From: a virus
Taxonomy: Duplodnaviria; Caudoviricetes
DNA length: 64,000 nucleotides
Virus record (IMG/VR): IMGVR_UViG_3300030330_005655
Span: 31,490 to 95,489 of that record
Direction: 5' to 3' (one strand)
Shown: positions 20,701 to 35,313 of the stretch, piece after piece
Layout of the letters: each line of letters opens with the position of its first letter
How positions within the stretch are numbered: position 1 is the first letter of the stretch
The notes under the pieces: model-generated
The model's database searches: none
What the model saw: only the letters and a program-made list of their open reading frames with translations
Told to the model about the DNA's origin: nothing
Position numbers and translations under genes: made by a program

Positions 20701-22880
20701 ATTAATTTTTGAACAACTTCATCTGAAAGCTCTTGACCAACAGAATAAGAAATCAAGCTTTCACCTCTGTTCGCCTCCACATAATCAGATACCACTCCAA
20801 GTTGTGGTTGTTGCGTTCTGTCAACAAGCTTAGTGAGTATAATAGGAGGGTTTCTTTCCTGTCCAAACGTTGGCGAATCGGCTTCATTGTCTATATCTAA
20901 AACCCATTCATCGTTTATATCTAAAACATAGCCAATAGGACCGCCACCTTCGGGTAACTCAATAATGTCGTCGGTAGGTATTACAGTTACATAATAATTA
21001 TGCTGTATAAGCTCACAACATTCTTCAATAACATTAGAAATTGTGGTTGTTTGTCCTGCAATTCTAAAGTTGTTGTATTCAGGTGTTTCAACTATATCTC
21101 TAATCGCAGTTATGTCTAACCTGTACCTGCTTTGCCCGAAAGATATAGGATCTCCAAAATTAGATTTTCCATAGGACATATTTTCCAAGATTTCTAAAAG
21201 TCTTGGGGCAGGGAATCCTGCCGAGTTTGTTCTAGCCTTTCCAAAATGACCACTTTCTCCAACGGGTTCTGTAAACCTTTCATCCCCAGCAAGCCAGTAA
21301 TTTTCTTCATGTGCTAAAGCGTTCCATATATTTCTCATTTGCTGATTATTTTCAGTACCCTTGCAAGGGAACCCATTTGAATCAATAGCAAATATAGGAT
21401 TATTAACTTTTGCATCATCATTTATATTACCATCCCCATCTAAACCTTCTGCGGGATTTAGGGGATTTCCTATGCAGCCTTCAGACTCGCGAACAGACAC
21501 AGGAGAAAAAATATCGGATTGCGTGTAAGGTATTTCTCTGTAATCATGACCAAAACTATTACCATCGGCAGCGCCCTGATCCCAGTTAAAACTTGTTCCG
21601 TCAAAATTAGAAAGTATTACGTTTACACCATTTAATACTTTGCCGCCCGGAGACTCTAATATAACATCATATTTTTTTCCGGCGGTGCTTTCATTTAAAG
21701 TAAACCTTTGAAAAACACCACCAAAATAAAACTGACCATATTTAAAATAACACGCAGTTCCAACCTGCGGAGGATTAAACACAACAGGTCTTCTAACTCC
21801 GTCAATTGGATCTATTTCAGTAGTATCAGGATCTTCGACCAGTGTTAATTGACAAGAGCCTCCTTGAGAACCCCAAGTAGCACTAGACTCAAATTTTTCA
21901 ACATAGCAACCAAACATCATGGGTGTTGGGGTACAGTCTTTTACAAATGTCTGAACCATAAAGTCCATTTTTTTTGTAACGACTTCATACTTTGATAGAT
22001 CGTTTGGCGACCAAGTTACTGTCAAGATAGCATCTTCACAAAGCTCCGTTCCAACAGGAGGATCAAACCTAAAAGCTCCTAAATCGCTTATATCTTGACC
22101 AGTTGTGGGATCTATTACACTCATGCAATACTCTTCCCCGTCACCCTCCGCTAAGGTGTGTGGGAAAACTTGTTCCACTTCGCCCTCACAAGGAAGTCTT
22201 GTTTCACACTCGCCAGAATGTTGCAAACACTCCCAATCTATAAATGGGGTTACACAAACATCTTCTCGTATTTTAATAATTTTAATACTGGAAGTTTTTT
22301 CAGTAGTACGATAGGTCGCTGTATCATCTGGAACAAATGTGGCAGTCACTTCTGTTGTTTCGCAAAGCTCTGTGCCAGCGGGAGGGCTGAAGGTCAAAGT
22401 ACCCGGAACTACTTCACCGGTATTAGGATCGGTAACAGTAACCTGATCTAGCTCTTGTTGAGAATTTAATATATAAAAAGTTGTAGTTACCAAACCCCGG
22501 CAATCTATCTCTTCTAGACACAATCCAAGATAGCCAGAAAGATTAAAATTAATTCTTGGAGTTTTACAAGAGTCGCTATTAACAATTCTTACTCTTAGAT
22601 TTTGAACCTTAGATGCAGAATTATAAGCAGAAGGGTCTGTGGGTGTAAAAGTAGCAGTTATATCGGTATCTGCACAAATTGAAGCCCCAGCCGCTGGCGA
22701 ATAAGCAAACGAGCCTTCAACGGTATCTCCAGTATTAGGATCTCTGGCTACTGCATTTAATTCATTTAAAGAGTTTATTACGTAGGAGGTTTGAGTAACC
22801 GCCCCTGCGCAATTAGTAACCTTTGAGCAAGTTCCTTCGTACTCTGATAAATCCCATTTTATAACTGGTGTTTTCGGCAT
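17703..22880 (-). CDS. Large tail-tip/baseplate protein with three N-terminal Ig-like (MBG/Big-like) repeats
   Basis: Position after TMP; repeats TP.I.W..DP.TG..G.F...P..G..LC....T.T..P.D...Y; start at MPKTP with AGGA SD. Confidence 0.65.
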   Translation of the reverse strand: MPKTPVIKWDLSEYEGTCSKVTNCAGAVTQTSYVINSLNELNAVARDPNTGDTVEGSFAYSPAAGASICADTDITATFTPTDPSAYNSASKVQNLRVRIVNSDSCKTPRINFNLSGYLGLCLEEIDCRGLVTTTFYILNSQQELDQVTVTDPNTGEVVPGTLTFSPPAGTELCETTEVTATFVPDDTATYRTTEKTSSIKIIKIREDVCVTPFIDWECLQHSGECETRLPCEGEVEQVFPHTLAEGDGEEYCMSVIDPTTGQDISDLGAFRFDPPVGTELCEDAILTVTWSPNDLSKYEVVTKKMDFMVQTFVKDCTPTPMMFGCYVEKFESSATWGSQGGSCQLTLVEDPDTTEIDPIDGVRRPVVFNPPQVGTACYFKYGQFYFGGVFQRFTLNESTAGKKYDVILESPGGKVLNGVNVILSNFDGTSFNWDQGAADGNSFGHDYREIPYTQSDIFSPVSVRESEGCIGNPLNPAEGLDGDGNINDDAKVNNPIFAIDSNGFPCKGTENNQQMRNIWNALAHEENYWLAGDERFTEPVGESGHFGKARTNSAGFPAPRLLEILENMSYGKSNFGDPISFGQSRYRLDITAIRDIVETPEYNNFRIAGQTTTISNVIEECCELIQHNYYVTVIPTDDIIELPEGGGPIGYVLDINDEWVLDIDNEADSPTFGQERNPPIILTKLVDRTQQPQLGVVSDYVEANRGESLISYSVGQELSDEVVQKLIIGAPASRWWYCPIEQCVPVWGKDGAGRWIISRDFAGNPVTAPLAYLPGNSVQVMLDESSFNPGYIATVAEIRMALGGKESWQAFKVVESIAAGTFDQDPWCVGFEFTEDILDQFLLYAVGNLAFAATSLHTANNAYNANRSFAAHQVDTIWRGVSKCAENFYRQKFVVPVPEEPGGRDNNLKYLNEDDGVNQGLFDNPLTQVPSWKTVDSAYIELPLVDDIAAYDSNGRLKSGQIYANSNFYDYSALQQDYARWSPANAGATGQDGVFTTKGGPATDTVFWYDLGGGEGLPCIVWDCGVQIRNYAQTALMDRVGDARGGGVIDAFDTTPHLGLLPLVKYHFDADVNLESMIGAGKELLQIQVPPDLKHPIAIGVPQESQKFCWGPWYNFVEGATNGKSEVVFDTSLAPENFGSFQALNEIGASYARAGNAQVIENESGSMRLASKPAFNIADRFTSLGPYITNLSCSIDTSGMYTTYQFNTWTPNFGKLAKYNADRLSRIYKATLDALQRIRQQIIKRGFNPYPAGEFNLDDIDERYRRNRGNGTAIMFSAYDGTAPNDEFPQNFQAYGDTGYAVEGAMIDVSDLYGLALSKYSQSFGATQEQIFSPYQTQTEKPDGSTTHPEIESVAVTDEQGQRFKDQSIYPSSEELDPYFPYELYQDGDNGQEFLRQSDYHSSIHGSSNPDNLQHHLNNNVSDIVRSVGFRGPMVLSGWGYDLAANPVPNDMSATGGGAFDQGAAGNRRHWETGPINLMWDAERKIWSGGHEFIVGLLKSDITAPDAWNEPTTFQVEVARKDDPDPATKGDDNLVVDGEIITGYNRDTNFSLLLKDPPQWIVCVRQNYEWIPLKQNQCRLVIFDIRGSKDVNCDIECPKTGDASSPQTGHIVHKLCGCDHVPYAAEDGTIQVYDDMQFFWEGGGIGGGPRLQNEVAGQGVAMLVENGNECKWVVIYFDHYRDINVITSAAVVGSNLEFGRHTVRIWDCCKLEPTKIPLIDCEDYE

Positions 22881-22888
22881 GTTGTTTC

Positions 22889-24517
22889 CTATTCGGTCGT
22901 TAGTGGCATAGCGTCCCAACTTTCAGAAAGATTGTAAACCCTTGTTGAAGGATTCCAGCTTTCTGTAAAGCTTTTGCACTGCGCGTTATCGGCTGTAGGT
23001 CTGTATGGTTCTGATAGCGTTTGACCGTTGGGCTTGCCAAAGCCTCTAGCCATAGTCAGATCAACTGTTATGTTTGTATTAAAAATTGGAGTTGTTTCAA
23101 AGTTTTGAATAACTGGACCGTCCTGCTTTCCCAAAACCTGTATAACAGCATATACGTCAACGATGCCATACTGATTAGAGTATGACACATTAATACTTTC
23201 TGATATAGATCCTTCAACAGAAGCCTCTCTGTCATTATAGGTCGCAGAATAAGTTATAACACCACCTGTTTTATTAACACCAACAGATTCATTAACCACT
23301 TGCGTACTTAAAGTGCCAGCCCCGCCGCCGGTTCTATAAACCTCTTCCGCTAAAGTGATCAAGGTAGGTCTCATCAAATCAAAAGCTCGTTTAGCATTAT
23401 CATATTTAGATATGCTAGTAATACTTGATGTATTATAATCTAACCCATTGATAGTTGCATTTATGTTAACAGTAGTAAATGGCTGGTCTTGCTGTGCTTC
23501 ATAAGAAGCCTCTATAACATGATTGGCGAAAAAGTTTTCTTGAGACAAAAGCCAAGTGTCTGTAACCTCATAACTTCCAGCCGATTGATCAGACTTTACA
23601 ACCCTAACATGATTAAATGCATCATAAACAATTAGCCCTGCACCGCCATCGCCAGACAAACTAAACCCAAGCTCGTCAGAAGCTTCAGGCTTGTTCATTT
23701 CTATAGGCAAAAACGTACTTTGAAAAAATGTAGTATCGCCCATCAAGTCTTCTGTTATAGCAACCGTTGGGTCATTCACAAGTCTGGTAGAAACCCACTG
23801 AACAGCCTGTCTAAAAGCCTCGCCGTCGTCTTCTAAGGATGTGGGGTCTTCGTATTTTTTTAAACCCTTTGCGGTAACGGTGTGTGACAAACTGTAGGTT
23901 TTATGCATAACATTTTCAGCGCTGTCATAAACACCCCCTTGAAAAAAAATACCATCATTTTGATTAAGATCCCAATTTTCAGAAACAGACTCCAGCAAAT
24001 ACGTTGGATCAGCTTTAGCCAGTGTATCAATATTTGTGCCAACAGACTCTTCTTGGTATGCCTCAAAAACAAAGTTATACTCAAAATTTTGAACACCAGC
24101 AGAATTTTCCTGCTGCTCTGGAAGATCAACAGAAACAAGTCTAGCATCCTTGTAAATTATAATATTGTCCAAGCCATTATAAGGCTGTATTTCTAATTTA
24201 CCAGTACCCTGATTAGGAAAAATGTTCCTAATAAACTGCATGGTTTTTATAAGATCGCCCTGAATAGTTGACTGCCTTTGACCCTTTTCTGTTATGTCTT
24301 GATTAGGTTGTGCGCTGTCTATCGTGGCGGTTCCGGTAACATTTATGGTGAACTTGGAATTTACATATGTTCCATCTCCGGTAGATATTATTTCTCTTGA
24401 TATAGAGTATCTAGGCATTGGCCCAGACAATCCGGTATCGCCAGTGGCTCTGTTTACAGAAGAAACACCACCTATTACTAAAACTTTGCTGTCTTGGTTG
24501 GTTTGAAAAACTATCAT
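22889..24517 (-). CDS. Minor tail protein (distal tail/hub-like)
   Basis: Beta-rich acidic protein in the tail operon, two genes downstream of TMP. Confidence 0.55.
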   Translation of the reverse strand: MIVFQTNQDSKVLVIGGVSSVNRATGDTGLSGPMPRYSISREIISTGDGTYVNSKFTINVTGTATIDSAQPNQDITEKGQRQSTIQGDLIKTMQFIRNIFPNQGTGKLEIQPYNGLDNIIIYKDARLVSVDLPEQQENSAGVQNFEYNFVFEAYQEESVGTNIDTLAKADPTYLLESVSENWDLNQNDGIFFQGGVYDSAENVMHKTYSLSHTVTAKGLKKYEDPTSLEDDGEAFRQAVQWVSTRLVNDPTVAITEDLMGDTTFFQSTFLPIEMNKPEASDELGFSLSGDGGAGLIVYDAFNHVRVVKSDQSAGSYEVTDTWLLSQENFFANHVIEASYEAQQDQPFTTVNINATINGLDYNTSSITSISKYDNAKRAFDLMRPTLITLAEEVYRTGGGAGTLSTQVVNESVGVNKTGGVITYSATYNDREASVEGSISESINVSYSNQYGIVDVYAVIQVLGKQDGPVIQNFETTPIFNTNITVDLTMARGFGKPNGQTLSEPYRPTADNAQCKSFTESWNPSTRVYNLSESWDAMPLTTE

Positions 24518-25182
24518 TATTCAGAAAAACCTCTTGTAAAGATATTCAATGTTTTTGTTTCTGGGGCTTTGATTATCAGATCCAAACCAGAGGCTTGAAC
24601 AAAAACACCACTTGTGTATAAATCGACATTGTTATTAACAGCATTAGAACGAACAAACAAATTCACATTGCCTTCAGCATTAAAGCTACCATATGGATTT
24701 TCTATATACAAAGGCATATTGTTATTATCTATTGAATTAGACCTTATATGCAAATTTATATTATTATTTTTTCTAAAGAAGATACCATCAGCAGAAGCAA
24801 CATCACCACTAATAAACGCCGTTATTGTGCCGGAAGAAGTAAGGTTGCTGATTGGAGCTTGAAGGAACAATGGGGCCGTTCCAGAGGCTTCAAACTTTCT
24901 ATCGGTTGGCGTTATGAATAAAGAAACATCGCCACTAGCTGTAGATCTAGCTCCCACAATATTCAAATCAGCAGTATTATTTACAACATCGCCGCTACCA
25001 CTAGGTTGAGCAAATTTATCATTTTGTATAAAAAGAGACATGACGCCGGTGGGAAAACTGTTGATGATCACCAACGGCATTGTTTTTTCTTCTGTCGCCC
25101 CGCGAATATACGAGTTTATCGAACCGCTGTGAGGAACAGGGCCAGATATAAAAAGGCTCGTATTAGCGTTGTGAGTAGCCAA
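24517..25182 (-). CDS. Small virion protein with short xSG...L(F/Y)I repeats
   Basis: 10 SG dipeptides; follows TMP; TTG start with AGGA SD. Confidence 0.5.
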   Translation of the reverse strand: MATHNANTSLFISGPVPHSGSINSYIRGATEEKTMPLVIINSFPTGVMSLFIQNDKFAQPSGSGDVVNNTADLNIVGARSTASGDVSLFITPTDRKFEASGTAPLFLQAPISNLTSSGTITAFISGDVASADGIFFRKNNNINLHIRSNSIDNNNMPLYIENPYGSFNAEGNVNLFVRSNAVNNNVDLYTSGVFVQASGLDLIIKAPETKTLNIFTRGFSE

Positions 25183-25194
25183 TCCTAAAAACTC

Positions 25195-28100
25195 CTAAGC
25201 TATAAATCTAGAATTATTTTGATCAATCATTGCAGCAACTTCTTGTCCTACAAACTCTCCTATAAACTGACTAAGTTCATTTTTGATAAGTTCAATATTT
25301 AATCCTTGCAGGTTTAATCCGCCTTGAACATTCACAGTGTGTGTGAACTGGAAACCGTTTGCAAAAAGCGCTGCGGCATCGCTCATCTTGGTTATTAGCG
25401 GATCGAAAGAACTAATCGCACCGGCAAAAGCGTCGGTTATACCGCCAATAAAACCAGAAAATACACCCTCAATCTGTCCTGTGTCTATTGCGAACATGCC
25501 ACCGCCAGTGCCTTCTCTGCCGCCGCTTCCTTGGTTGCGGTAAACTGGCCCACCTTTGTTGTAGCCCGGAACTTGGCCCCTGTTCAAACTTTTCATAAAT
25601 CCAACACCATATTTGTCTACGGTGTTTGAATTCATTACAAACTCTCCGGGCGTGAGCATTGCTGGCACAGTGTCTTGATTAGAGCCGCCATTTCTAAAGT
25701 AAGAAGGAACGAGACCGCCTTTAGCATAGTGATATGGAAATAAAGGCATAGCTTGGTACATGTTGTATAAATCTATATTTTTAAACTCATGATTAGTTTT
25801 TATTGCCGCAAATCTTGCTCTTGCTTTATCAATAAGTTTATTAAATTCAATCCTAACATCGTCGTCAATATTACCAGCACCGTCCATGATTGGATCGCCA
25901 AGATGGGAAAACGTTCTTTTTCCTGTTCTGAAGTTCCTTTTAAAATGAGCGCTCATTAAATTTGATGATGGAAATTGACCAGTAGCACCAACATGCCGTG
26001 CAATCTCTTCTACTAGGGCAAGCTCAGTGTATTCTTTGTCATCGGGTGGTCCAAGATAGTCTACAGACCTATCTAATAGATTTCTTACACCCTGCGGAAG
26101 CCGTTCTTTTAGTGCTATTGCTTTCTTTTTGCCTTTGAGCGTTAGTCCGCTTGGAACAGGTTGTTGAGCTTCGATTCCCCTAAGTATTTGTCTAGCTCGT
26201 TCTCCCATTGGTCCGGGCTGCATAGCCATTGCTTGCAGTTGAGCCATATTGTTGAACCGATTCGTCGAATCGTATCTCCGATTGATACCCTCCACACCCA
26301 TGCCTCGCATATTGTTGATAGCCTCGCTACCCATATTCATTAAACCTTGACCGGGAATTCCACCCGGACCACCCGAAAACGCACCCATGTCGGTCATGAT
26401 TGGGTTGCCATATATATCGTAGTTGGAGAACCCATAGCCACCAAATTGTGCATATCGACCACCGCTATAAGCAGCCCTAGGTATGCCCATATTGCCGTAT
26501 CTTGTGCCGCCCATGTTTCGCATGTATCCACTTATGCCGCCACCAAATTGACGGTAAACAGGACCGCCTTTGGCATATCCTAAAATACGATAATATTTTC
26601 TAGCAAGATTCAAACTGTCTTTTGACAGGCTGCCCTGTGGAACTCCTACCGTTGATCCATCGGCTTTTTCTAGATTTAAAATTGCATTTCCGCTACCGGC
26701 GCCGCTTATACCTCTATATCTAGCCTGCGTTGAATGTTCGCCCGTGACATTTGTCCATGTTTCAAGTCGATCTATACCAAGCCCTTGAAGAGAAGCGTTT
26801 TGTAATGATGATATGTATGATGGGCCGGGATCTGGACGAAGGTCTTCATAAGGAACTTGGACTAGTGCCGCAGCGCGTGCCGCAGCGCCTTTTAAAAAGC
26901 CTCCAACAGCCGAAATGCCAGCACCAAGATTACCCCTAGCAGTATCAAAATTACTTTTAAAATTAGAATAACCAGTTTTAGCAGCATCTATAGCAGTTCT
27001 ACCAGCCCCAATCAAATCAGCTAATCCAAACTTCGGTTCTACGGAAGGCGACTGGAAGCCTGTCATCATAGGCTCTCTTCTACGTTCTTTCGGCTGAACC
27101 ATTCGAGGATATGGCGCGTCTGGATTTAACCGATCAAAATCCGCATCACTCATCATCGGAGGCATAAAGCTTGGAGAAACCCCTCCGATGGGTGTACTTA
27201 TGTCAAGCAGCCCAGAAACATCAACGATAGGGAAATCTTTCAAAATGGCTGGGTCGGCTCTTCGGGGGGTTGGAGCGGTCGGGGTGCGCAGTCTTCTTTT
27301 AATAAATCTGTTTGGACCCTCTAAGGGAAAATTAGCCCCAAATGTATTAGCCATGCCAGCCAAAAAGTTGTGTACAAACATAGCAATACCCGAATGATCA
27401 TCAGCAAAACCCGAACGATCACCAGCAAACTGCCCCGGATATCCTCCCGCTCTAATATCTGGATCTGGATGGCCTGAAGTGTAAACACCGGGAGCTACGC
27501 GCGTTCCCAAATAGACAGGAGCGCTGGGTTGAACGCGCCGAAAGCTTCCATCAGCAGTAGCGCTACCGATAGTTCCTCGACCACCGCCGCTACCACCAAT
27601 GGTTCTTACAGGCACATCGCCTACATGAGTACTTGAGTTCTTTTTACGGTTTTGCCATTCCGAATACTCTTGTGGGGTATTCCGTTGATGCCACATACTT
27701 GCTTGCTGTATAGTTCTTGCCCCTATAGCAGTTATTTTGTTAGCAGGAAGTCCGGTGTGCTTATGATAAGGTAGACCGTCACTAGGAGTCTCTCCACCCA
27801 TATGTCTATAAACAACACTTCCACCCCTATTCAAAGCCGCCAAATTATCAGCACCAATCTTATCAACAGCAGACTTTCTTATAACAAACTCGCCCGGAGT
27901 TAACATAGCAGGAACAGTATCAGTGCCTTTGGGCTTGAATATAGTGCCACCATTTTTTCTATACTGAACCAATCCACCCCTAGCATTTCCTTGCGCTTCT
28001 TGGTCGCCTCCCGGCTGGTTTGCCGCAGCTTTTCTAGCCATAACCATTTCTTGAGTAAGCTTGGTTACTTCATCGGCAAGCTTGACATTCGCCTCTATCA

Positions 28101-31100
28101 ATTGCTCTTCTTTTGTTGTTGCTTGAGCCAACTGTTCGGCTACTCTTGGATCAAGCCCCATGCGAATCGCATCACGAATAACAAGCTCTTGCTTTATTTC
28201 TTTTCCTGTAAAGCCGCCAACAAGCTCAACATCTGCAAGCCTATCAAGCAACCCCACGGTGTTTTGTCTTTGTTCAGGAGTTTGATTTTGAAGTGTTCCT
28301 GTGGCAAAAGCAAAATTCACACCACGAAAAGCCATCATTAAATCTTTTCTGGCGTCTTTACCACCAACAACAAAATCCTCAACAACATCAAGCATAGCAG
28401 CGCGTTTTGATCTTTCATCTTCAATAAGGGCTATGTTTGCCTCCATCTCTTCAAATATACCAGTGGCCCTTTCTCCTTGGTTTGCCATTCTTTCAAGTTC
28501 GTTTGTGGTTACGTCAATAACCTTCTGCATTTTATCTTGGCGAGCAATCAATTCTTTTGTTGCCCTGCCCGCATTTATTTCTTCTGCTATTCTTTGTCTA
28601 GTGGCTATGGCGGCCTGCCTACTAACTGCAATTTGTTGTAGATTTCCTGCTTCTAGCTGCTTGCCAGTAGGGTCTTGAAATCCTTGAAGATTAGCCTGAG
28701 CAACAACCCTTTCTCTTCTATCTTTAACCTTTCTGTCCAAAGGCTCTGCTTCAAATTCTGAATCTCTTGATCTGGAAACTAAATCTTGTGCTTGTTTTCT
28801 TAAATCTGCACCTTCAAAAATTGTTTGAATTTCTGCCTGTTTTTGCTCTAGCTCTTTTTGTCTAAGGGTTTCTCTTGCATTTAAGAATGATTGATAATTA
28901 TTAATATCCTTTTGACTTAAACCAACAAGTCTATTTATTGACTCTGCTTGTTTTTTAGCCAGTTCTTCCACTGGAGCAAATATGCTTTGCAAAGCTTCTT
29001 CTGTTATTCTTCCGCCTTGGGCGGCTTCTCTCAAACTTTTTCCTACATTATTGAAAAGCTCTTGACCAAAAGGCCCAAGTTGTTCGGGAGTTAGCCCCAA
29101 GCTTCTAAGTATAACATCTGCATTTACAGGATCGCTACCAAAGTTTTTACCCAAAAGATCTCTTCTTGCATTTTGCAAAACAGTAGCAGAAGTTAAAAGC
29201 TGATCTCCAACCTTTTGTGCGGCAGGCCCAAAGCTTGAAGTAATACTGTCAACTTGAGCTATAAACTTTTTAGGGTCTTGAATTCTACCAATATTATCTA
29301 TTTCATCAACACCACGAACCTCTGCTTTAAGAGCTTGGTTTTCAATTACAGCAGTATAGTTTTCTATAGCTTTTGCTTGATTTTCCAAAGCTTGTTCTTG
29401 CAGCGACAAGGCACTCAAAAACTTGTCGGCTTCAGCAACGGCTTTTGTAAGAGCTATAGTGGCTTTTCTTTGTTCATCTTCTGCTTTTCTTAATGTTCTC
29501 GCAGTGTCTGCTTGTCTTTTTATACCTTCAGCCAAGTCTCTTACTTTTTGATTCGCAGCGTTTGTAAGCTTGGTGTTTTGTTCTAAAATGCTATTAGCGG
29601 CGTTGGTCAATGCGGCCTTTTCATCCTCGGTTTTCGCCGCTCTTGCCTGAGCCTGCAACGATGCCGCTTCAGCCTGATTTTTCGCCACCAACAAAGCAAG
29701 CTCTGCCTGAGTTGCGGCTTTTACCTGATTAAAAGCCTGAGCAACTAATCCGCTACCATTAATTAATTCATCAAACGTTTGCTCGCCGGTGATTTCAACA
29801 CTTGCAGCATCTTGCAATGTTTTCACAGAAGCTTCGGCAGCTTGACTAGCGGCCTCTAAAGAAGCGCTTAATCTTAATTGATTTACTTCCACAATAGCGG
29901 CAATCGAAGCATTGTCTTCAAAGTCTTCTTTCTTTAATTGACTTACGGCTTTTCCAGCGTTCATTGCTTGAGCCGCTAACTGGTGTAAAGCCTCTTTGCC
30001 TTGTTTGCTAGCACCAGCACTAATCAAATCTCCTTGAGCTTGAAGCCTTCTGTTGACTCTACCCTCTGGAGTTGCAGCAAGCTCTGCGGCTTCCATAGCG
30101 TCTTTAAAATTATTACTAGCTTGAGTAATCTGGGTAAGACCTTCAATAGATTCTTTTATAGTTTGTGTGTGTCTTTGCTGTTCTGCTATAGCTTCTTCTT
30201 GTGCAGAACTATACACCAAATAACCAACACCAGCACCGACTAAAGCACCAACCAAAGTACCAACAACCGGAACTACACTACCTAAAGCAGCACCCGCAGC
30301 AGCAGCAGCACCAGCAGCAGCTAATCCACTACCAACAGCAGCAGCAGCGCCAGCCGTTCCAGCGCTTGAAAATGAAGCAGACTGATCTCTAAAAGCCACT
30401 TCCGAAAGTTTTGCAGTAGTTAAGGTTTCTGCACTAGCACCACTTTCCAGACCTTCTTTGAAAATTTTTGCTTGGGCATCAGCGCTTGCTTTCGCTTGAG
30501 CAGATAAATATTTAAACACAACCATAACAGCAGTAGCAGCAAGAGCCACCCCACCCAAAGTCCCAGCAAGACCTGCGCCCGCCGCATTTTTACTCGCAAG
30601 AGCTTCTGCTTCATCAGAAGCCGCAGCATTTAAGCTAGCTTTAGCTTCAGCAGATTTAGCAGCAACCAAGGTGGCGCTAGCAAATACATCTAAAAAAGTA
30701 CCACCTACTCCAACTAACGTTGCAACAAATGTACTCGTTTCATTGATAGCCTGCTTTGTTTCTTCACTCAAGCCACTCATTTGGGCTGTTACAGCGGCAG
30801 CAGCACTAGTTAAAAATATAAAGCTTTGTGCGGCTTGGGCTGGCCCTTTTAGTTTTTCAGCAGCGCCGCCTGCTGATCCAACTGCGCCGGATAGCGTATT
30901 CACACCAGCAGATCTAAAGTTTTCACGACCTTTCGCAAGTCTGCCTTTTACAAAACCGCCAGCAGCCGCAGGTGTGCTAGCAGCTTTATTAAGAGCGTTG
31001 CGAACTTTTGCCCTTACTGTGTTATTTTCTTTTCTCGACTTGATAGTTTCTTGTATTTCTTTCTTTTCCCGCTGTCTTATTCCATTAGTCTCGGTTATTT

Positions 31101-33957
31101 GTCTTTCAGTTTCTTTTCTTGCCTTGTCTGTAGCGGCAATAGAACTTCCAGTCTTTTTTAGTTCGTCTTGATAAGCCTTTTCAACTTTAGACATGTCAAC
31201 ATTAGCACTTCCAGCGACACTCTGTTGAAAATCTGAAGCTAAATTTCCCTCTTTCCCACCAAGGATGGAAGCAACTGGTGCGCCAATCTCTGGGCGTGCG
31301 CCAGCCATACCCCTTGTACCTTCAAAGCCCTCTGCCCCCTTCAAAATTCCAGCGCCTTGAACACTAGCCGCGCCTTTTTCATAGGCTCTTGTCATTTTTC
31401 CTGAGCCGTCCTTTAAATCTTTTTCAGCTATTTGCATAGCCGCAGCTAAATCATTACCTTCCAACCCAAGAACTTCAAAATTTCTTCGTACCTTTTCTAA
31501 TTGTTTAGCGAGACTGTCAGCCGGTCCCTTGATCAGTCCCGGATTAAATGCTCTTAATTCAACGCCAGAACCTCCAGCGGGAGTTCCATTTCCATACGTG
31601 TATCTTCCAGCAGTAACTATACCGCCAGCAGCATATCCACGAACCCCGCCCTGATTCATTTTCTTGAGATTACTATAACCTATACTTTGCGCCGCGCTTT
31701 TATTGAATACAAATTCGCCGGGAGTCAACAAAGCTGGAACAGTATCTGAGCCACTAATTCCACCACCTTTAGCGCGCCTTTCCATTCTAGAATATGGACC
31801 AGCGGCTGCCGAAAGCTCTCTAGACGCTCTTTGTCTATTCATAGCGTTGCCTTGATCATCTTCAAATCTTACAGCAGAAACTCTTCTGGTAGCCCTAGCT
31901 AAAAGACTTCTTTTTCCGCCAAAAGCTGTCATCAACGCTTCGCCAACATCTGCTCTTATAACATCTGCATCCGTGTCTAAATTCTTTCTTGTTTTTATAT
32001 TATTAGCAAAGCTTTTAGCTATAGTTCCTTTATTTGCACTTAACTCTTTAAAAGCTGGAGAAGCTTTACCACCAGTCAATCTATAAGCACTACCTTTACT
32101 TAAAAGGCTATTAAATATATCGCCGCCTTTTGCTTTTATATACCTTTTTAATATAGTGCCTGTAGTGCCTGCTTTGTTTTTTAAGTTCCAGTCTCTATTC
32201 CAGTTCATTGGCAGATCAACACCAACACTAGAATAAAGCTGTCTTATCTGTCTATTTTTTTCTTTAGCAGCAAAGGCTCTGGCAGAACCAGAAGTGTTAA
32301 GCTTGTCTAAGTGAGCAAACTCTGTGTCTAGAGTGGGTGTCAATTTTTTAAATTCTCTAGCAGACTGTGTTTTAACATCCTTTTTTGAAACAGCGCGAGT
32401 GCTGCCTCTTTGAAACCTATTTTGATTCATTGCCGCAAGAGTATTAGCACCCAAACTTTTTACGCTACTTTTCTTTATAACAAACTCGCCGGGGGTAAGC
32501 ATTGCCGGAACGGTGTCGCGATTTCCAACACCGGGAACTATTCCGCCCCTAGCAAATCTAGAAACTGCACCACCGCCACCGCCTCTTGCACTTCTTCCTA
32601 TGCCAGCCAATCCGCCAAGCGCAGGAGCTAAACCCCTTCCGATTTTTGTAGCTACTAAAACACCCAACAAAGGAAGCAAAGGTTCTAAAGACTGAGTAAT
32701 TTTAAGAAAAGCATCTGCAAGCTTTAAAGAAAAACCAACCAAAGATTGAAAAGAACTGCTGTCTTTGAATTTTGCAACGAGGGCATCAAAGCTTTCACGA
32801 ACCTTTTGTATTTGAACACCGAGACCCTGTTGTGCTATTTGAGCATCCTTAGCCAAAGAGCCACTAGCACCTTGAGCGACATTCAAAGCGTTTTGAGCAA
32901 CGGCAAACTGCTGAATCAAAGGAATAACCTTGCCAACCTGCCTAAATCCACCAAGCTCTTCCACAACCTGAGCAAATCTAAAGTCTCTAGGATCTAATGC
33001 AGACAACCCTTGTGAAAGTCTTTTAACAGCCTCAAAAGCACCAACAAATCTACCCTGACTATCTTGAAGCTGAATATTTAATTGTTTCAACTGTTCAATC
33101 GTTTCAACACGCTGAATTCGCGTGAAAATTGTACGAAGACCAGTAGCAATCGTTTCAGCGCTTTCACGGGTCGTAGCACGAACACTTGTGAAAAGCGCTA
33201 TAAGCTCGTTTACACTACCGCCAGCCGACGAAAAGACACCACCAACTCTACGAATTGTAGTGATCAAGTCTCCAGATTCTACAGCAAACTTTTTAGAAAC
33301 GCTGTTAATTGCAGAAAGACTTTTTTCAAGGAATGCTATATCCCCACCAGAGTTTCTGGCCTCTCTTCTGAACTGACTCAAAAGAGCAATAGCGCCCTCG
33401 GTCGTGTCTTGAATATTATCAAACGTTGCAGCAAGTGTAGTTTGCGCCAAAACGTTAAGCGCTTTACTAGCTTTCTCGGCAGAAATACCGGCCTGTGTTA
33501 AAGTTCTAGAAGCTTGAAGCAAGTCAGATGAACTAGTACCCAAGGTAGTACCAAGCCTTCTAACCTCATCACTAACAGACTTTAGCTGCTTTACACTTTT
33601 TCCGCTAACCTGAGATATTTTTATCAATTCTGCTTCAAAAGCAATAGCCTGCCTGACAGAATTTTTAAAGGCATTTGCTAGACTAAGAAGCGTACCGGTG
33701 GCAACAGTAATCACACTAAATCTTCTTGCCGACTCAGCAAGAGTTCTGTTTAACTGAGTAACAGATCTAGAAGAAGCCTGCGCATTCTTATTGAAAGACT
33801 GTAAACTTTTATTAGCTTGAGCTAAATTCTTAGCGTTATTTATTTTTAAATTTACGCCAATAGGTTTTAGCTGCTTACGTATATCCGAAATTACTTTATT
33901 CGCATTTCTGGGCGCTTGTAGGTTTAACTGCGCTGTTAGGTTGAATTGCTGTGCCAT
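25195..33957 (-). CDS. Tape-measure protein (TP901-type N-terminal core), multi-module, 2920 aa
   Basis: Longest gene, downstream of tail tube/chaperones; TP901-like core (FEAELIKISQVSG..RESAETIATGLRTIFTRI); Ala/Gly hydrophobic segments; four copies of DTVPA[ML]LTPGEFV. Confidence 0.92.
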   Translation of the reverse strand: MAQQFNLTAQLNLQAPRNANKVISDIRKQLKPIGVNLKINNAKNLAQANKSLQSFNKNAQASSRSVTQLNRTLAESARRFSVITVATGTLLSLANAFKNSVRQAIAFEAELIKISQVSGKSVKQLKSVSDEVRRLGTTLGTSSSDLLQASRTLTQAGISAEKASKALNVLAQTTLAATFDNIQDTTEGAIALLSQFRREARNSGGDIAFLEKSLSAINSVSKKFAVESGDLITTIRRVGGVFSSAGGSVNELIALFTSVRATTRESAETIATGLRTIFTRIQRVETIEQLKQLNIQLQDSQGRFVGAFEAVKRLSQGLSALDPRDFRFAQVVEELGGFRQVGKVIPLIQQFAVAQNALNVAQGASGSLAKDAQIAQQGLGVQIQKVRESFDALVAKFKDSSSFQSLVGFSLKLADAFLKITQSLEPLLPLLGVLVATKIGRGLAPALGGLAGIGRSARGGGGGAVSRFARGGIVPGVGNRDTVPAMLTPGEFVIKKSSVKSLGANTLAAMNQNRFQRGSTRAVSKKDVKTQSAREFKKLTPTLDTEFAHLDKLNTSGSARAFAAKEKNRQIRQLYSSVGVDLPMNWNRDWNLKNKAGTTGTILKRYIKAKGGDIFNSLLSKGSAYRLTGGKASPAFKELSANKGTIAKSFANNIKTRKNLDTDADVIRADVGEALMTAFGGKRSLLARATRRVSAVRFEDDQGNAMNRQRASRELSAAAGPYSRMERRAKGGGISGSDTVPALLTPGEFVFNKSAAQSIGYSNLKKMNQGGVRGYAAGGIVTAGRYTYGNGTPAGGSGVELRAFNPGLIKGPADSLAKQLEKVRRNFEVLGLEGNDLAAAMQIAEKDLKDGSGKMTRAYEKGAASVQGAGILKGAEGFEGTRGMAGARPEIGAPVASILGGKEGNLASDFQQSVAGSANVDMSKVEKAYQDELKKTGSSIAATDKARKETERQITETNGIRQREKKEIQETIKSRKENNTVRAKVRNALNKAASTPAAAGGFVKGRLAKGRENFRSAGVNTLSGAVGSAGGAAEKLKGPAQAAQSFIFLTSAAAAVTAQMSGLSEETKQAINETSTFVATLVGVGGTFLDVFASATLVAAKSAEAKASLNAAASDEAEALASKNAAGAGLAGTLGGVALAATAVMVVFKYLSAQAKASADAQAKIFKEGLESGASAETLTTAKLSEVAFRDQSASFSSAGTAGAAAAVGSGLAAAGAAAAAGAALGSVVPVVGTLVGALVGAGVGYLVYSSAQEEAIAEQQRHTQTIKESIEGLTQITQASNNFKDAMEAAELAATPEGRVNRRLQAQGDLISAGASKQGKEALHQLAAQAMNAGKAVSQLKKEDFEDNASIAAIVEVNQLRLSASLEAASQAAEASVKTLQDAASVEITGEQTFDELINGSGLVAQAFNQVKAATQAELALLVAKNQAEAASLQAQARAAKTEDEKAALTNAANSILEQNTKLTNAANQKVRDLAEGIKRQADTARTLRKAEDEQRKATIALTKAVAEADKFLSALSLQEQALENQAKAIENYTAVIENQALKAEVRGVDEIDNIGRIQDPKKFIAQVDSITSSFGPAAQKVGDQLLTSATVLQNARRDLLGKNFGSDPVNADVILRSLGLTPEQLGPFGQELFNNVGKSLREAAQGGRITEEALQSIFAPVEELAKKQAESINRLVGLSQKDINNYQSFLNARETLRQKELEQKQAEIQTIFEGADLRKQAQDLVSRSRDSEFEAEPLDRKVKDRRERVVAQANLQGFQDPTGKQLEAGNLQQIAVSRQAAIATRQRIAEEINAGRATKELIARQDKMQKVIDVTTNELERMANQGERATGIFEEMEANIALIEDERSKRAAMLDVVEDFVVGGKDARKDLMMAFRGVNFAFATGTLQNQTPEQRQNTVGLLDRLADVELVGGFTGKEIKQELVIRDAIRMGLDPRVAEQLAQATTKEEQLIEANVKLADEVTKLTQEMVMARKAAANQPGGDQEAQGNARGGLVQYRKNGGTIFKPKGTDTVPAMLTPGEFVIRKSAVDKIGADNLAALNRGGSVVYRHMGGETPSDGLPYHKHTGLPANKITAIGARTIQQASMWHQRNTPQEYSEWQNRKKNSSTHVGDVPVRTIGGSGGGRGTIGSATADGSFRRVQPSAPVYLGTRVAPGVYTSGHPDPDIRAGGYPGQFAGDRSGFADDHSGIAMFVHNFLAGMANTFGANFPLEGPNRFIKRRLRTPTAPTPRRADPAILKDFPIVDVSGLLDISTPIGGVSPSFMPPMMSDADFDRLNPDAPYPRMVQPKERRREPMMTGFQSPSVEPKFGLADLIGAGRTAIDAAKTGYSNFKSNFDTARGNLGAGISAVGGFLKGAAARAAALVQVPYEDLRPDPGPSYISSLQNASLQGLGIDRLETWTNVTGEHSTQARYRGISGAGSGNAILNLEKADGSTVGVPQGSLSKDSLNLARKYYRILGYAKGGPVYRQFGGGISGYMRNMGGTRYGNMGIPRAAYSGGRYAQFGGYGFSNYDIYGNPIMTDMGAFSGGPGGIPGQGLMNMGSEAINNMRGMGVEGINRRYDSTNRFNNMAQLQAMAMQPGPMGERARQILRGIEAQQPVPSGLTLKGKKKAIALKERLPQGVRNLLDRSVDYLGPPDDKEYTELALVEEIARHVGATGQFPSSNLMSAHFKRNFRTGKRTFSHLGDPIMDGAGNIDDDVRIEFNKLIDKARARFAAIKTNHEFKNIDLYNMYQAMPLFPYHYAKGGLVPSYFRNGGSNQDTVPAMLTPGEFVMNSNTVDKYGVGFMKSLNRGQVPGYNKGGPVYRNQGSGGREGTGGGMFAIDTGQIEGVFSGFIGGITDAFAGAISSFDPLITKMSDAAALFANGFQFTHTVNVQGGLNLQGLNIELIKNELSQFIGEFVGQEVAAMIDQNNSRFIA
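25636..32517 (-). repeat. Four dispersed DTVPA(M/L)LTPGEFV modules in TMP (32479-32517, 31708-31746, 27883-27921, 25636-25674)
   Basis: Read directly from the translation and checked at nucleotide level; codons diverge synonymously. Confidence 0.95.
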
Positions 33958-34025: not shown

Positions 34026-34946
34026 TTATGCTTTGTTCGCATCCTTTTTAGTGGTTCTTGTCCTACGTTTTTTCACAGGCTTATCCTGAGCGGCTTTTTC
34101 TTCGGCAGCTATAGGATTATCCTTATCGTCTAGGAATGGCTTTCTTTCAGCAATATCGGCCTTGACCCATTCATCACCCTTTTCGACGACCTTTTCACCA
34201 TTAATATTTACAAAGTAAGGATTTTCACCCTTCTTGTAATCCTCATCATTTTCATAGGCTATAAATCTACCATCTTCACTGAGAAGTCTTCCTTCTGAGT
34301 CTGTCAAATGACCATCTTCATTAATAAATCTTAGATCTTTATCAACAAATTTAAACTCTTTCAAGAATTTATTTTCTTCAAGATTATTTTCATAGTTAGG
34401 ATCTAGACCATACATTGCATTTCCAAGCTTTTCTGCGGCATGAACAACCCAAGGCTGGGAAGCTGCGGCCAGATAATCGCTTTTTTCCTGAAACCATCTT
34501 TGATTAGTTTCTGGATTAATTGTACAAAGTCTAACCAGTTCAGAGAATCTAGCATTATCAGCCTGACCTTCAGCCGAAGCTGCATCAAGAGAATTTTTCT
34601 CAGCAATGAGATCTCTAAATTCTTCTCTTTTTTGCTTGAGGGACATAGCTATTTTTTTAGCCTCAGACAGCCTAATGCCGCCCTTTTGTAGAGCCTCTTC
34701 CATTCCAGATATTTCTTCCAGAATTTTTTCATAAGAAGCCTGCTTGGAGTCACTCCACAAATCCTGATCTCTCATATATGCAGAAAGCTTTTGCCTAAGA
34801 AGCGCCCCTTGATCCAGAGCGTCTTTAAAAGCCTTGTTGTACTCTACCTGAGATTGATTAATCTCTTCTGCTCCGGGCATCTTGATGGTAAACTTTACGG
34901 TGTTGCCATCTAAATCCTCACCCTCGAAAGTTTCTTTATCCGTCAT
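34026..34946 (-). CDS. Putative tail assembly chaperone
   Basis: Acidic helical protein immediately upstream of TMP. Confidence 0.45.
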   Translation of the reverse strand: MTDKETFEGEDLDGNTVKFTIKMPGAEEINQSQVEYNKAFKDALDQGALLRQKLSAYMRDQDLWSDSKQASYEKILEEISGMEEALQKGGIRLSEAKKIAMSLKQKREEFRDLIAEKNSLDAASAEGQADNARFSELVRLCTINPETNQRWFQEKSDYLAAASQPWVVHAAEKLGNAMYGLDPNYENNLEENKFLKEFKFVDKDLRFINEDGHLTDSEGRLLSEDGRFIAYENDEDYKKGENPYFVNINGEKVVEKGDEWVKADIAERKPFLDDKDNPIAAEEKAAQDKPVKKRRTRTTKKDANKA

Positions 34947-35313
34947 TTTCTTCTCCTTCTGGTTTGTGGACAGGAAGTTCTATATAGTATTTTTTCCTGT
35001 CTATTTCGTAATTAAGAAATTCTAACTCCAAGTCTCTGATCTGTGTATTTCCTCTATCTAGTATTTTAGCCCTAATATCTTCATATATCAACTTTAAATG
35101 TTTTTGTTCTTCTGTTAATTCTGATTCATGTAATCCAAACCCCCACAAGAATCCAAAAAATTGTTCCACGTCAGACAAAGAACCAATCATGGTTGTTTGC
35201 ACTTTTTTCTTTGCGGTCTTTAGTAAAGCGTCATGAGAAGCTTGTCTGCCTCTTTCTTCTCTTGCTTTCTTTAAATCTAAAGACGTTTTTAAAAAGTTTT
35301 TATACTCTTCCAT
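34936..35313 (-). CDS. Hypothetical protein (tail assembly region)
   Basis: Coupled ORF between tail tube and TMP. Confidence 0.6.
   Translation of the reverse strand: MEEYKNFLKTSLDLKKAREERGRQASHDALLKTAKKKVQTTMIGSLSDVEQFFGFLWGFGLHESELTEEQKHLKLIYEDIRAKILDRGNTQIRDLELEFLNYEIDRKKYYIELPVHKPEGEENDG

What the first reader, a model, noticed from the sequence alone, without database searches (positions are those of the whole stretch)
25195..33957. Polyprotein-like tape-measure protein: four conserved FAxGG..DTVPAMLTPGEFV modules bracket cargo domains
Seen: the ~55-aa module (F/Y/N)AxGG..DTVPA(M/L)LTPGEFV.....V...G...L..(M/L)N occurs at about aa 481, 738, 2013 and 2762. Shorter (Y)xxGG.V.Y...GG echoes (e.g. 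YAKGGPVYRQFGGG) subdivide the region between copies 3 and 4. Copies 1/2 and 3/4 each enclose non-TMP-like sequence. Established from recall, to verify: siphophage TMPs usually carry one such motif near the C-terminus, in the region where lambda gpH is matured, and TMPs are ejected into the host. Inference: the modules are processing or tail-loading signals that turn the TMP into a carrier releasing several effector domains at infection, and they may also serve as recombination points for cargo swapping.
Basis: partly seen in the sequence, partly recalled or inferred. Interest (0 to 1): 0.8.

Follow-up and report, generated by a model that had tools for sequence, protein, structure and literature searches.

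The report
Tape measure with four lambda-type joints
The tail "ruler" protein of this uncultured large phage has a conserved backbone interrupted by hypervariable inserts, each fenced by copies of a short joint that phage lambda's ruler carries once beside its cutting site; related phages swap the inserts at these joints, but neither cutting nor any enzyme cargo is shown here.

Summary
ORF 25195-33957 (-) encodes a 2920-aa TP901-type tape measure protein (TMP). It carries four copies of a ~55-75-aa module with the invariant core DTVPA(M/L)LTPGEFV, at aa 481, 738, 2013 and 2762.

The copies differ at synonymous sites and are old, position-specific paralogs. The module is homologous to lambda gpH ~717-796, just C-terminal to the Gly-rich region where gpH is cut into gpH* and gpHC. 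No Pfam model covers it.

In more than 100 relatives the backbone and modules are conserved, whereas the inserts (aa 528-713, 785-1040, 2060-2731) have almost no homologs. Homology breakpoints pile up at module edges. Near-identical phages (98% nt) carry unalignable inserts between the joints, so cassette replacement at the joints is shown.

Not shown:
- Cleavage. Support is circumstantial: size matches in lambda and Arthrobacter phage ArV2, and rare in-frame stops at joints in relatives.
- Effector function. The inserts here have no recognisable domain except a weak SHD1-like stretch, and both AF2 models were uninformative.

The scan found and followed up the same architecture before on other DNA, with the same reading. 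This is a new variant of a known kind, of moderate interest.

The parts
25195..33957 (-). Tape measure protein gene, 2920 aa
   Evidence: Intact ORF. PF10145 at aa 130-336, E 1.5e-25. TIGR01760 at aa 93-397, E 1.9e-29. Several PHROG TMP families.
32596..33957 (-). Segment A (aa 1-454): conserved TP901-type N-terminal domain, ending in a hydrophobic Gly-rich stretch
   Evidence: ~66% identical over full length in 117 of 120 relatives. All 6806 ordered family pairs align.
32377..32595 (-). Joint module M1 (aa 455-527)
   Evidence: It has the same layout as lambda gpH 690-796: a Gly-rich hydrophobic stretch, then FAxGG, then core and helix.
31819..32376 (-). Variable cassette B (aa 528-713), Lys-rich
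   Evidence: Only 6 of 120 relatives have it. It is 67% identical in P0104 and P0106; P0104's backbone segment A is only ~44% identical to the query's. No Atlas lead. AF2 pLDDT mostly below 50, with one 50-70 helical stretch.
31606..31818 (-). Joint module M2 (aa 714-784)
30838..31605 (-). Variable stretch C1 (aa 785-1040)
   Evidence: No relative covers 60% or more of it; there are only 3 partial hits.
28006..30837 (-). Backbone C2/C3 (aa 1041-1984): TM-like Ala/Gly-rich segments (aa ~1075-1251), then a long Ala/Glu/Gln-rich, presumably helical, ruler
   Evidence: Kyte-Doolittle peaks. Conserved at ~32-34% identity in most relatives. Relatives hit glycine-zipper Pfam models in the corresponding region.
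27781..28005 (-). Joint module M3 (aa 1985-2059)
25765..27780 (-). Variable cassette D (aa 2060-2731)
   Evidence: No homolog among 120 relatives except the D2 sub-piece. One hit among 1.84 billion representatives, itself a truncated TMP C-terminus. No Atlas lead. AF2 pLDDT ~25-40.
26593..26772 (-). SHD1-like stretch inside cassette D (aa 2396-2455)
   Evidence: PF03983 at E 0.014, below the cut-off. The homologous piece in relative P0037 scores 39.5 bits, above the cut-off.
26413..26577 (-). Cluster of five aromatic-xx-GG 'echo' motifs (aa 2461-2515), Gly/Tyr/Met/Arg-rich low complexity
25531..25764 (-). Joint module M4 (aa 2732-2809)
25198..25530 (-). C-terminal tail E (aa 2810-2920), presumed tip-binding end
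   Evidence: Semi-conserved: 41 of 120 relatives at ~34% identity. AF2 places helices here at pLDDT 50-69. The tip-binding role is by analogy with lambda gpH 818-849 and Douge TMP 1658-1699 (PMC10721106, PMC13033339).

Best explanation
This is the tape measure protein of an uncultured aquatic tailed phage. The record is 95.5 kb and estimated ~62% complete. Shown: the protein is a conserved backbone broken by hypervariable cassettes. The backbone comprises a TP901-type N-terminal domain, a hydrophobic glycine-zipper region, a long ruler and a C-terminal tail. Two cassettes (aa 528-713 and 2060-2731) are each fenced by two copies of a ~55-75-aa joint, and a third variable stretch follows copy 2. 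The joint reads (F/Y)AxGG, an acidic residue, VPAxLxPGEFV, then a ~18-residue amphipathic helix ending in MN, often followed by another (F/Y)xxGG. It is homologous to the single copy in lambda gpH (~717-796). That copy lies just after the Gly-rich region where gpH is cut into gpH* and gpHC. The four copies are old, position-specific paralogs under purifying selection. Related phages have replaced whole cassettes, with crossovers at the joints. Inferred: the joints are flexible seams that let foreign segments ride inside the tail lumen without disturbing the backbone. I put about one chance in three on the seams being cut during tail maturation, as in lambda. In that case the TMP would act as a polyprotein whose pieces leave the tail with the DNA. 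The cassettes in this window show no enzyme signature. If they act at all, host-specific binding or counter-defence is more likely than catalysis.
For: - TMP identity.
- Four modules, with synonymous differences between the copies.
- Family architecture of 2-6 modules, with 70 of 121 proteins having four at conserved relative positions.
- Homology to lambda gpH (profile E 1.4e-3; family HMM E 9.5e-10) and to two copies in Douge and LeBron TMPs.
- Lambda is cut in the Gly-rich region at about residue 690-710, and gpH 690-817 is unresolved in all structures: PMC12617516, PMC10721106.
- The ArV2 virion TMP runs at ~100 kDa against 128 kDa predicted (PMC4205034). Its single module lies at 889-952, and residues 1 to ~935 weigh ~100 kDa.
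- Inserts lack homologs while backbone and modules are conserved.
- 109 of 173 conserved-block ends lie 20-50 aa after the core, against 10 of 173 random positions. 62 of 161 block starts lie 0-20 aa before it.
- Nucleotide-level mosaics, for example L007 against L010: 97.9% identity over aa 1-522, unalignable, 98.2% over aa 725-2051, unalignable, 92.5% to the end.
- Cassette B is more similar (67%) than the backbone (44%) between the query and P0104.
- Same-position modules are 56-65% identical, against 39-48% across positions.
- Single in-frame stops at joints in L013, L047 and L017, and probably L076.
Against: - There is no direct evidence of cleavage in this phage or any family member.
- No protease candidate lies near the TMP, and no JAB or NlpC/P60 domain is in the record. 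38% of the genome is missing, though.
- T5 pb2 is cleaved yet lacks the module. SPP1 gp18 also lacks the module (PMC12617516 for T5). So the module is not a general cleavage signal.
- The lambda cleavage site is not mapped, and both size matches rest on gel mobility.
- Breakpoints at conserved modules are expected for any conserved island between variable stretches, whatever its function.
- The inserts here have no domain hit, and AF2 gave no confident fold.
- The pairs used are not phylogenetically independent.
Confidence: 0.6

Rival explanations
1. The joints are never cut. They are structural or assembly elements: docking sites for the tail assembly chaperone or the tube lumen, or nodes where the three or six TMP chains associate. 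They must stay constant, while the stretches between them are free to vary as spacers or host-interaction loops. The TMP stays one chain in the virion.
For: The joints are strongly conserved in sequence and position, with position-specific signatures. This fits distinct partner contacts. The module also occurs in mid-protein in Douge and LeBron TMPs and in T4-like cyanophage hub-region proteins. The Douge paper reports no TMP processing. AF2 suggests only an extended core plus one helix, which is typical of a partner-dependent binding element. No protease was found.
Against: In lambda and ArV2 the size of the processed TMP matches a cut at or just before the module (PMC12617516; PMC4205034). 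Rare relatives place in-frame stops exactly at joints, so the pieces may work as separate chains. No binding partner is known, and the region is invisible in every solved tail.
Confidence: 0.3
2. The variable inserts are mainly length adjusters. Swapping them changes TMP length, and hence tail length, to suit different cell envelopes. Their sequence matters little.
For: Insert lengths vary widely: 150-1088 aa between M1 and M2, and 179-1584 aa between M3 and the last module. Total TMP length differs by hundreds of residues between phages with near-identical backbones. Tail length is proportional to TMP length in lambda and TP901-1 (PMC5099701).
Against: The inserts are richer in Pro, Tyr and Trp and look less helical than the ruler part. 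Some cassettes are kept at 67% identity across backbones only 44% identical, which argues for selection on their sequence. Some relatives carry HExxH or SHD1 elements in them.
Confidence: 0.08
3. The mosaic pattern is an artefact of metagenome assembly, with chimeric contigs joined at the repeated conserved module.
For: Short gene calls ending 10-85 aa after M1 are 3-4 times over-represented in the protein database, and some end in atypical Cys/Trp-containing tails. Assemblies therefore do break or misjoin at this boundary.
Against: Dozens of independent assemblies from different samples give uninterrupted 2000-3900-aa ORFs with the same module order. Identical or near-identical TMPs recur in separate samples, for example L007 and L008. 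The four modules differ enough in DNA that a misjoin between positions would be visible.
Confidence: 0.02

Closest known systems
Phage lambda tape measure protein gpH and its maturation to gpH* plus gpHC (Tsui and Hendrix 1983, as reviewed in PMC12617516)
   Same: The local layout is the same: a hydrophobic Gly-rich stretch, FAxGG, an acidic residue, GEFV, an amphipathic helix, YAxGG, then a C-terminal tip-binding helix. Homology is significant. The lambda cut is placed at about residue 690-710, directly before the module.
   Different: Lambda has one copy near the C-terminus; this protein has four, and they fence hypervariable cassettes. Lambda encodes gpK (JAB plus NlpC/P60); no such gene was found here. 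The lambda N-terminal domain is PF06791 rather than PF10145.
Mycobacteriophage Douge gp16 and LeBron gp16 tape measure proteins (PDB 8ZDO; PMC13033339)
   Same: They carry more than one copy of the same module in one TMP, at ~955-1012 and ~1411-1462 of 1699 in Douge.
   Different: They have two copies, both in mid-protein. No hypervariable-cassette pattern has been described or was tested here. Only the last 42 residues are resolved in the structure.
TMPs that carry enzymatic domains (Arthrobacter phage ArV2 gp15 with an M23-like domain; TM4, T5 pb2, SPbeta YomI)
   Same: A non-ruler segment rides in the TMP. In ArV2 the M23-like domain lies directly after a lambda-type module, and the virion TMP is ~28 kDa shorter than predicted (PMC4205034).
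   Different: The inserts of this window have no recognisable enzyme domain. T5 pb2 lacks the module.
Earlier follow-ups of this scan on other genomes (e1-5324128, e1-5381428, e1-5381434, e1-5369058, e1-5883590)
   Same: The joint, the lambda link and the cassette swapping at joints are the same, as is the conclusion that cutting is unproven.
   Different: Some of those TMPs carry enzyme-like cassettes. This one does not, although five relatives have HExxH in the M3-M4 insert.

Membership tests
TP901-family phage tail tape measure protein (PF10145 / TIGR01760) | N-terminal core domain matches the family model above its cut-off | tested here: met
   PF10145 90.7 bits against a cut-off of 33.2. 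TIGR01760 102.8 bits against 28.8.
TP901-family phage tail tape measure protein (PF10145 / TIGR01760) | Lies in a tail gene cluster, downstream of head genes and upstream of tail-tip or fibre genes, on the same strand | tested here: inconclusive
   Terminase, prohead protease and major head protein lie upstream on the same strand. Immediate neighbours have no PHROG, Pfam or NCBIfam hit.
TP901-family phage tail tape measure protein (PF10145 / TIGR01760) | Determines tail length | not testable with these tools
   Needs virions.
Lambda gpH-type C-terminal joint | Sequence homology of the module to gpH ~717-796 | tested here: met
   Four-copy profile E 1.4e-3. 439-copy family HMM E 9.5e-10, 27.6 bits.
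Lambda gpH-type C-terminal joint | Preceded by a hydrophobic Gly-rich stretch and followed by a C-terminal tip-binding helix | tested here: met
   M1 follows LLPLLGVLVATKIG..GGLAGIG. M4 is followed by a semi-conserved 111-aa tail with predicted helices. This holds for M1 and M4 only.
Lambda gpH-type C-terminal joint | Proteolytic cut next to the module during tail maturation | not testable with these tools
   Only indirect support: size matches in lambda and ArV2 (PMC12617516; PMC4205034).
Viral polyprotein | Defined cleavage sites and a cognate or host protease | tested here: inconclusive
   No JAB or NlpC/P60 in the record. The record is ~62% complete. The only protease found is the prohead protease.
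Viral polyprotein | Pieces function as separate chains | tested here: inconclusive
   3-4 of ~73 relatives have a single in-frame stop at a joint. These could equally be sequencing errors or readthrough sites.
Effector- or enzyme-carrying tape measure protein | Recognisable enzymatic or toxin domain inside the TMP | tested here: not met
   There is no Pfam hit other than PF10145 and a sub-threshold SHD1. Cassette D has one hit in 1.84 billion representatives. The Atlas gave nothing. There is no HExxH in this protein.

The most novel reading that the evidence does not exclude
The lambda-type joint is a widespread maturation signal. Giant tape measure proteins of this family would then be true polyproteins, cut at each joint inside the assembled tail, with the hypervariable cassettes between joints released into the host ahead of the DNA as swappable host-takeover or counter-defence pieces. 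The same joint would define the long-unmapped gpH*/gpHC cleavage determinant of lambda.
Probability: 0.25. Interest if true: 0.8.

Novelty: new variant of a known kind. Interest (0 to 1): 0.55.

Why it matters
Tape measure proteins are usually treated as rulers with an occasional lysin domain. This work shows a large family: 990 or more proteins among 8,000 scored candidates, and 476 or more IMG/VR loci. In it the ruler is a scaffold for exchangeable cassettes, delimited by one conserved joint. If the joints are cut, the tail lumen becomes a delivery route for a diverse, fast-evolving set of injected polypeptides. The joint also points to where to look for the cut in lambda gpH, whose site and protease are still unknown (PMC12617516). 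Finally, it is a natural, tolerated insertion point for engineering cargo into phage tails of laboratory phages.

Tried and rejected
- **Pfam on the modules:** the four modules alone gave nothing. The neighbouring lambda model PF09718 covers gpH 627-701, not the module.
- **Literature:** searches for the motif strings and for 'polyprotein', 'hypervariable' or 'processed' TMPs found no description of this architecture. The TP901-1 dissection paper does not mention the motif.
- **gpK idea:** a lambda gpK-like JAB or NlpC/P60 peptidase cutting after GG was considered. No such domain is in the record. The idea is not supported here but not excluded, because the record is incomplete.
- **AF2 of aa 440-800 and aa 1985-2920:** mean pLDDT was 39.8 and 36.5. 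The alignments were shallow and partly forced, so the models do not show disorder. I ran no fold search because matches to such models are meaningless.
- **ESM Atlas on both cassettes:** no usable hit.
- **P0123, the only database hit to cassette D:** it sits on a 2.8-kb contig and is a truncated TMP, not a stand-alone gene.
- **Natural split genes:** I used 80 IMG/VR loci instead.
- **Excess of short gene calls ending just after M1**: this cannot be told apart from assembly breaks at the variable cassette, so I do not count it as evidence.
- **Single-linkage clustering of the M1-M2 inserts:** it chained into one cluster and was discarded.
- **T5 pb2 and SPP1 gp18:** neither has the module, so TMP processing in general is not tied to this joint.

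Full report
**What is there.** The finding covers one intact ORF, 25195-33957 on the minus strand, encoding 2920 aa.
- It is a tape measure protein (TMP). PF10145 matches aa 130-336 (E 1.5e-25) and TIGR01760 matches aa 93-397 (E 1.9e-29). Several PHROG TMP families also match.
- Terminase, prohead protease and a major head protein lie upstream on the same strand. The immediate neighbours match nothing in PHROGs, Pfam or NCBIfam.
- The window is part of a 95,489-bp linear IMG/VR virus record estimated at ~62% complete. Named relatives come from marine and other aquatic metagenomes.

**Observation check.**
- The core DTVPA(M/L)LTPGEFV occurs four times, at aa 481, 738, 2013 and 2762.
- HMM envelopes are 455-527, 714-784, 1985-2059 and 2732-2809.
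- Sixteen columns are invariant across the four copies.
- The DNA copies differ at synonymous positions throughout the invariant core. The repeat is therefore maintained by selection on the protein, not by recent duplication or gene conversion.
- The aromatic-xx-GG echoes are real. Five lie within aa 2467-2513, and others flank the modules. In the family they are 2-3 times more frequent than in shuffled sequence.

**The module elsewhere.**
- A profile of the four copies hits two solved-structure entries. One is mycobacteriophage Douge gp16, with two copies at 955-1012 and 1411-1462 of 1699. The other is lambda gpH, at 717-782 of 853.
- An HMM built from 439 family modules scores lambda gpH 725-796 at E 9.5e-10. 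It finds two copies in LeBron gp16. It finds one copy each in T4-like cyanophage proteins encoded next to gp26 and gp51, and one in Arthrobacter phage ArV2 gp15. It finds none in T5 pb2 or SPP1 gp18.
- Pfam has no model for the module. PF09718 covers lambda gpH 627-701, just upstream.
[quoted passage not shown] The exact site and the protease are unknown. Residues ~690-817 are unresolved in every structure, and only 818-849 is seen, bound to gpI (PMC12617516, PMC10721106). The local layout around M1 here mirrors lambda 690-796.

**The family.**
- A full-length search returned at least 990 proteins of 1.6-5.1 kaa at E ≤ 0.001.
- Among the best 120 plus the query, 70 have four modules, with a range of 2-6. 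The modules sit at about residue 460, about 800, about 2000, and about 170 residues from the C-terminus, with very variable spacing.
- Module i of one protein is 56-65% identical to module i of another. It is only 39-48% identical to modules at other positions, and different modules within one protein average 45%. The copies are therefore old, position-specific paralogs.
- The family contains no cysteine at all, and the backbone has almost no His or Trp.

**Conserved backbone, hypervariable inserts.** Identity to the 120 relatives, segment by segment:

| Segment (aa) | Result |
|---|---|
| A (1-454) | ~66% identity in 117 relatives |
| Modules | 57-71% identity |
| 1041-1984 | ~32-34% identity |
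| C-terminal tail | ~34% identity in 41 relatives |
| 528-713 | 6 hits |
| 785-1040 | 3 partial hits |
| 2060-2731 | none, except a 130-aa sub-piece |

- Even among pairs at least 90% identical in segment A, only 40% share the first insert and 29% share the M3-to-last-module insert.
- Cassette D has one hit among 1.84 billion representatives, and that hit is itself a truncated TMP C-terminus.

**Exchange at the joints.**
- In pairwise comparisons of close relatives, homology stops right after a module and resumes at the next one.
- Over 142 pairs, 109 of 173 conserved-block ends lie 20-50 aa after the PGE core, against 10 of 173 random positions. 62 of 161 block starts lie 0-20 aa before the core. 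The pairs are not independent.
- At nucleotide level, L007 and L010 are 97.9% identical over aa 1-522 and unalignable over 523-724. They are 98.2% identical over 725-2051, unalignable again, and 92.5% identical to the end. L055 and L062 behave alike. Gradual divergence cannot produce this pattern, so whole cassettes were replaced.
- Conversely, cassette B is 67% identical between the query and P0104, while P0104's backbone segment A is only ~44% identical to the query's. P0106 carries the same cassette at 67%.

**What the inserts are.**
- In this window nothing enzymatic was found. The only Pfam signal is a sub-threshold SHD1 match at aa 2396-2455. Its homolog in relative P0037 passes the cut-off.
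- Both Atlas searches were empty.
- AF2 gave mean pLDDT 39.8 and 36.5. With shallow, partly forced alignments this is uninformative, and I ran no fold search on these models.
- The only consistent feature is an extended core followed by a 16-20-residue helix in each module.
- Five relatives carry an HExxH motif, all in the M3-M4 insert. Some cassettes of the family may therefore be zincin-like, but this one is not.

**Does cutting occur?** There is no direct evidence. Three indirect points bear on it.
- The lambda cut maps by size to just before the module (PMC12617516).
- ArV2's virion TMP runs at ~100 kDa against 128 kDa predicted (PMC4205034). Its single module lies at 889-952, directly before an M23-like domain, and residues 1 to ~935 weigh ~100 kDa.
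- Among 80 IMG/VR relatives, three have a single in-frame stop that splits the TMP at a joint. L013 has TAG 19 aa after M1. L047 has TGA 9 aa after the MN of M1. L017 has TAG ~56 aa before the last module. L076 has TGA 16 aa after M1, close to a contig end. These may be real two-gene forms, readthrough sites or errors.

Against cutting:
- No JAB or NlpC/P60 peptidase like lambda gpK is present.
- The Douge paper mentions no processing.
- T5 pb2 is cleaved without having the module.

**Verdict.** The architecture and the cassette exchange at the joints are shown. The polyprotein or effector-delivery reading remains a hypothesis, which I put at about one in four to one in three. The main rival is that the joints are uncut docking or oligomerisation elements. 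The scan has already followed up this architecture on at least five other stretches of DNA, with the same reading. My results were derived before I read those notes, and they agree. Points I have not seen in those notes are the ArV2 size match, the in-frame stops at joints, the nucleotide-level mosaics and the position-specific paralogy. I found no published description of multi-joint TMPs with swappable cassettes. I therefore class this as a new variant of a known kind.

Noticed in passing
L013:11660-11662; L047:3303-3305; L017:10104-10106; L076 near 4208: Relatives carry a single in-frame stop (TAG, TGA, TAG, TGA) that splits the TMP ORF within ~10-56 aa of a joint, and the same frame continues with the next modules. 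In L013 a GTG follows the stop directly.
   Followed up: partly
window 25195-33957 and family proteins P0002-P0121: The whole TMP family contains no cysteine, and its conserved backbone has almost no His or Trp. The variable inserts are the only parts with appreciable Tyr, Trp, His and Pro.
   Followed up: partly
P0002, P0018, P0034, P0050, P0056 (inserts between module 3 and the last module): HExxH motifs occur five times, only in this insert class, four of them in a similar context (HExLH[F/S]xSxL). They may mark a zincin-like cassette that Pfam does not recognise.
   Followed up: no
L088:9152-12778 (Arthrobacter phage ArV2 gp15): A lambda-like joint at aa 889-952 sits directly before an M23-like HxxxD domain. 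The published virion band of ~100 kDa against 128 kDa predicted fits a cut at the joint.
   Followed up: partly
L002:3963-6263 (S-SM2_012); L003:3177-6029 (S-SCSM1 gp159): T4-like cyanomyophages carry the same joint (82 and 68 bits) in a large protein encoded right after gp26 and gp51. The next gene is annotated transglycosylase domain-containing protein in S-SM2 and tail length tape measure protein in S-SCSM1. The joint is therefore not confined to siphophage TMPs.
   Followed up: partly
window 17703-22919 (-), 22889-24517 (-), 24517-25182 (-): Three ORFs directly downstream of the TMP (1738, 542 and 221 aa), presumably tail-tip proteins, have no PHROG, Pfam or NCBIfam hit.
   Followed up: partly
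window 44848-49023 (-): A 1391-aa ORF has one weak PHROG hit to a baseplate wedge tail fibre connector (phrog_677, aa 680-853). This may hint at a baseplate-bearing tail.
   Followed up: no
window 34026-34946 (-) and 34936-35313 (-): Two ORFs just upstream of the TMP overlap by 11 nt, in the position of a tail assembly chaperone pair. The second has its own ATG and a GGAG-like ribosome-binding site. No frameshift site was established.
   Followed up: partly
proteins P0124-P0243: Gene calls that end 10-85 aa after module 1 are 3-4 times over-represented, and some end in atypical Cys/Trp-containing tails. This suggests metagenome assemblies often break or misjoin at the first hypervariable cassette.
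   Followed up: partly
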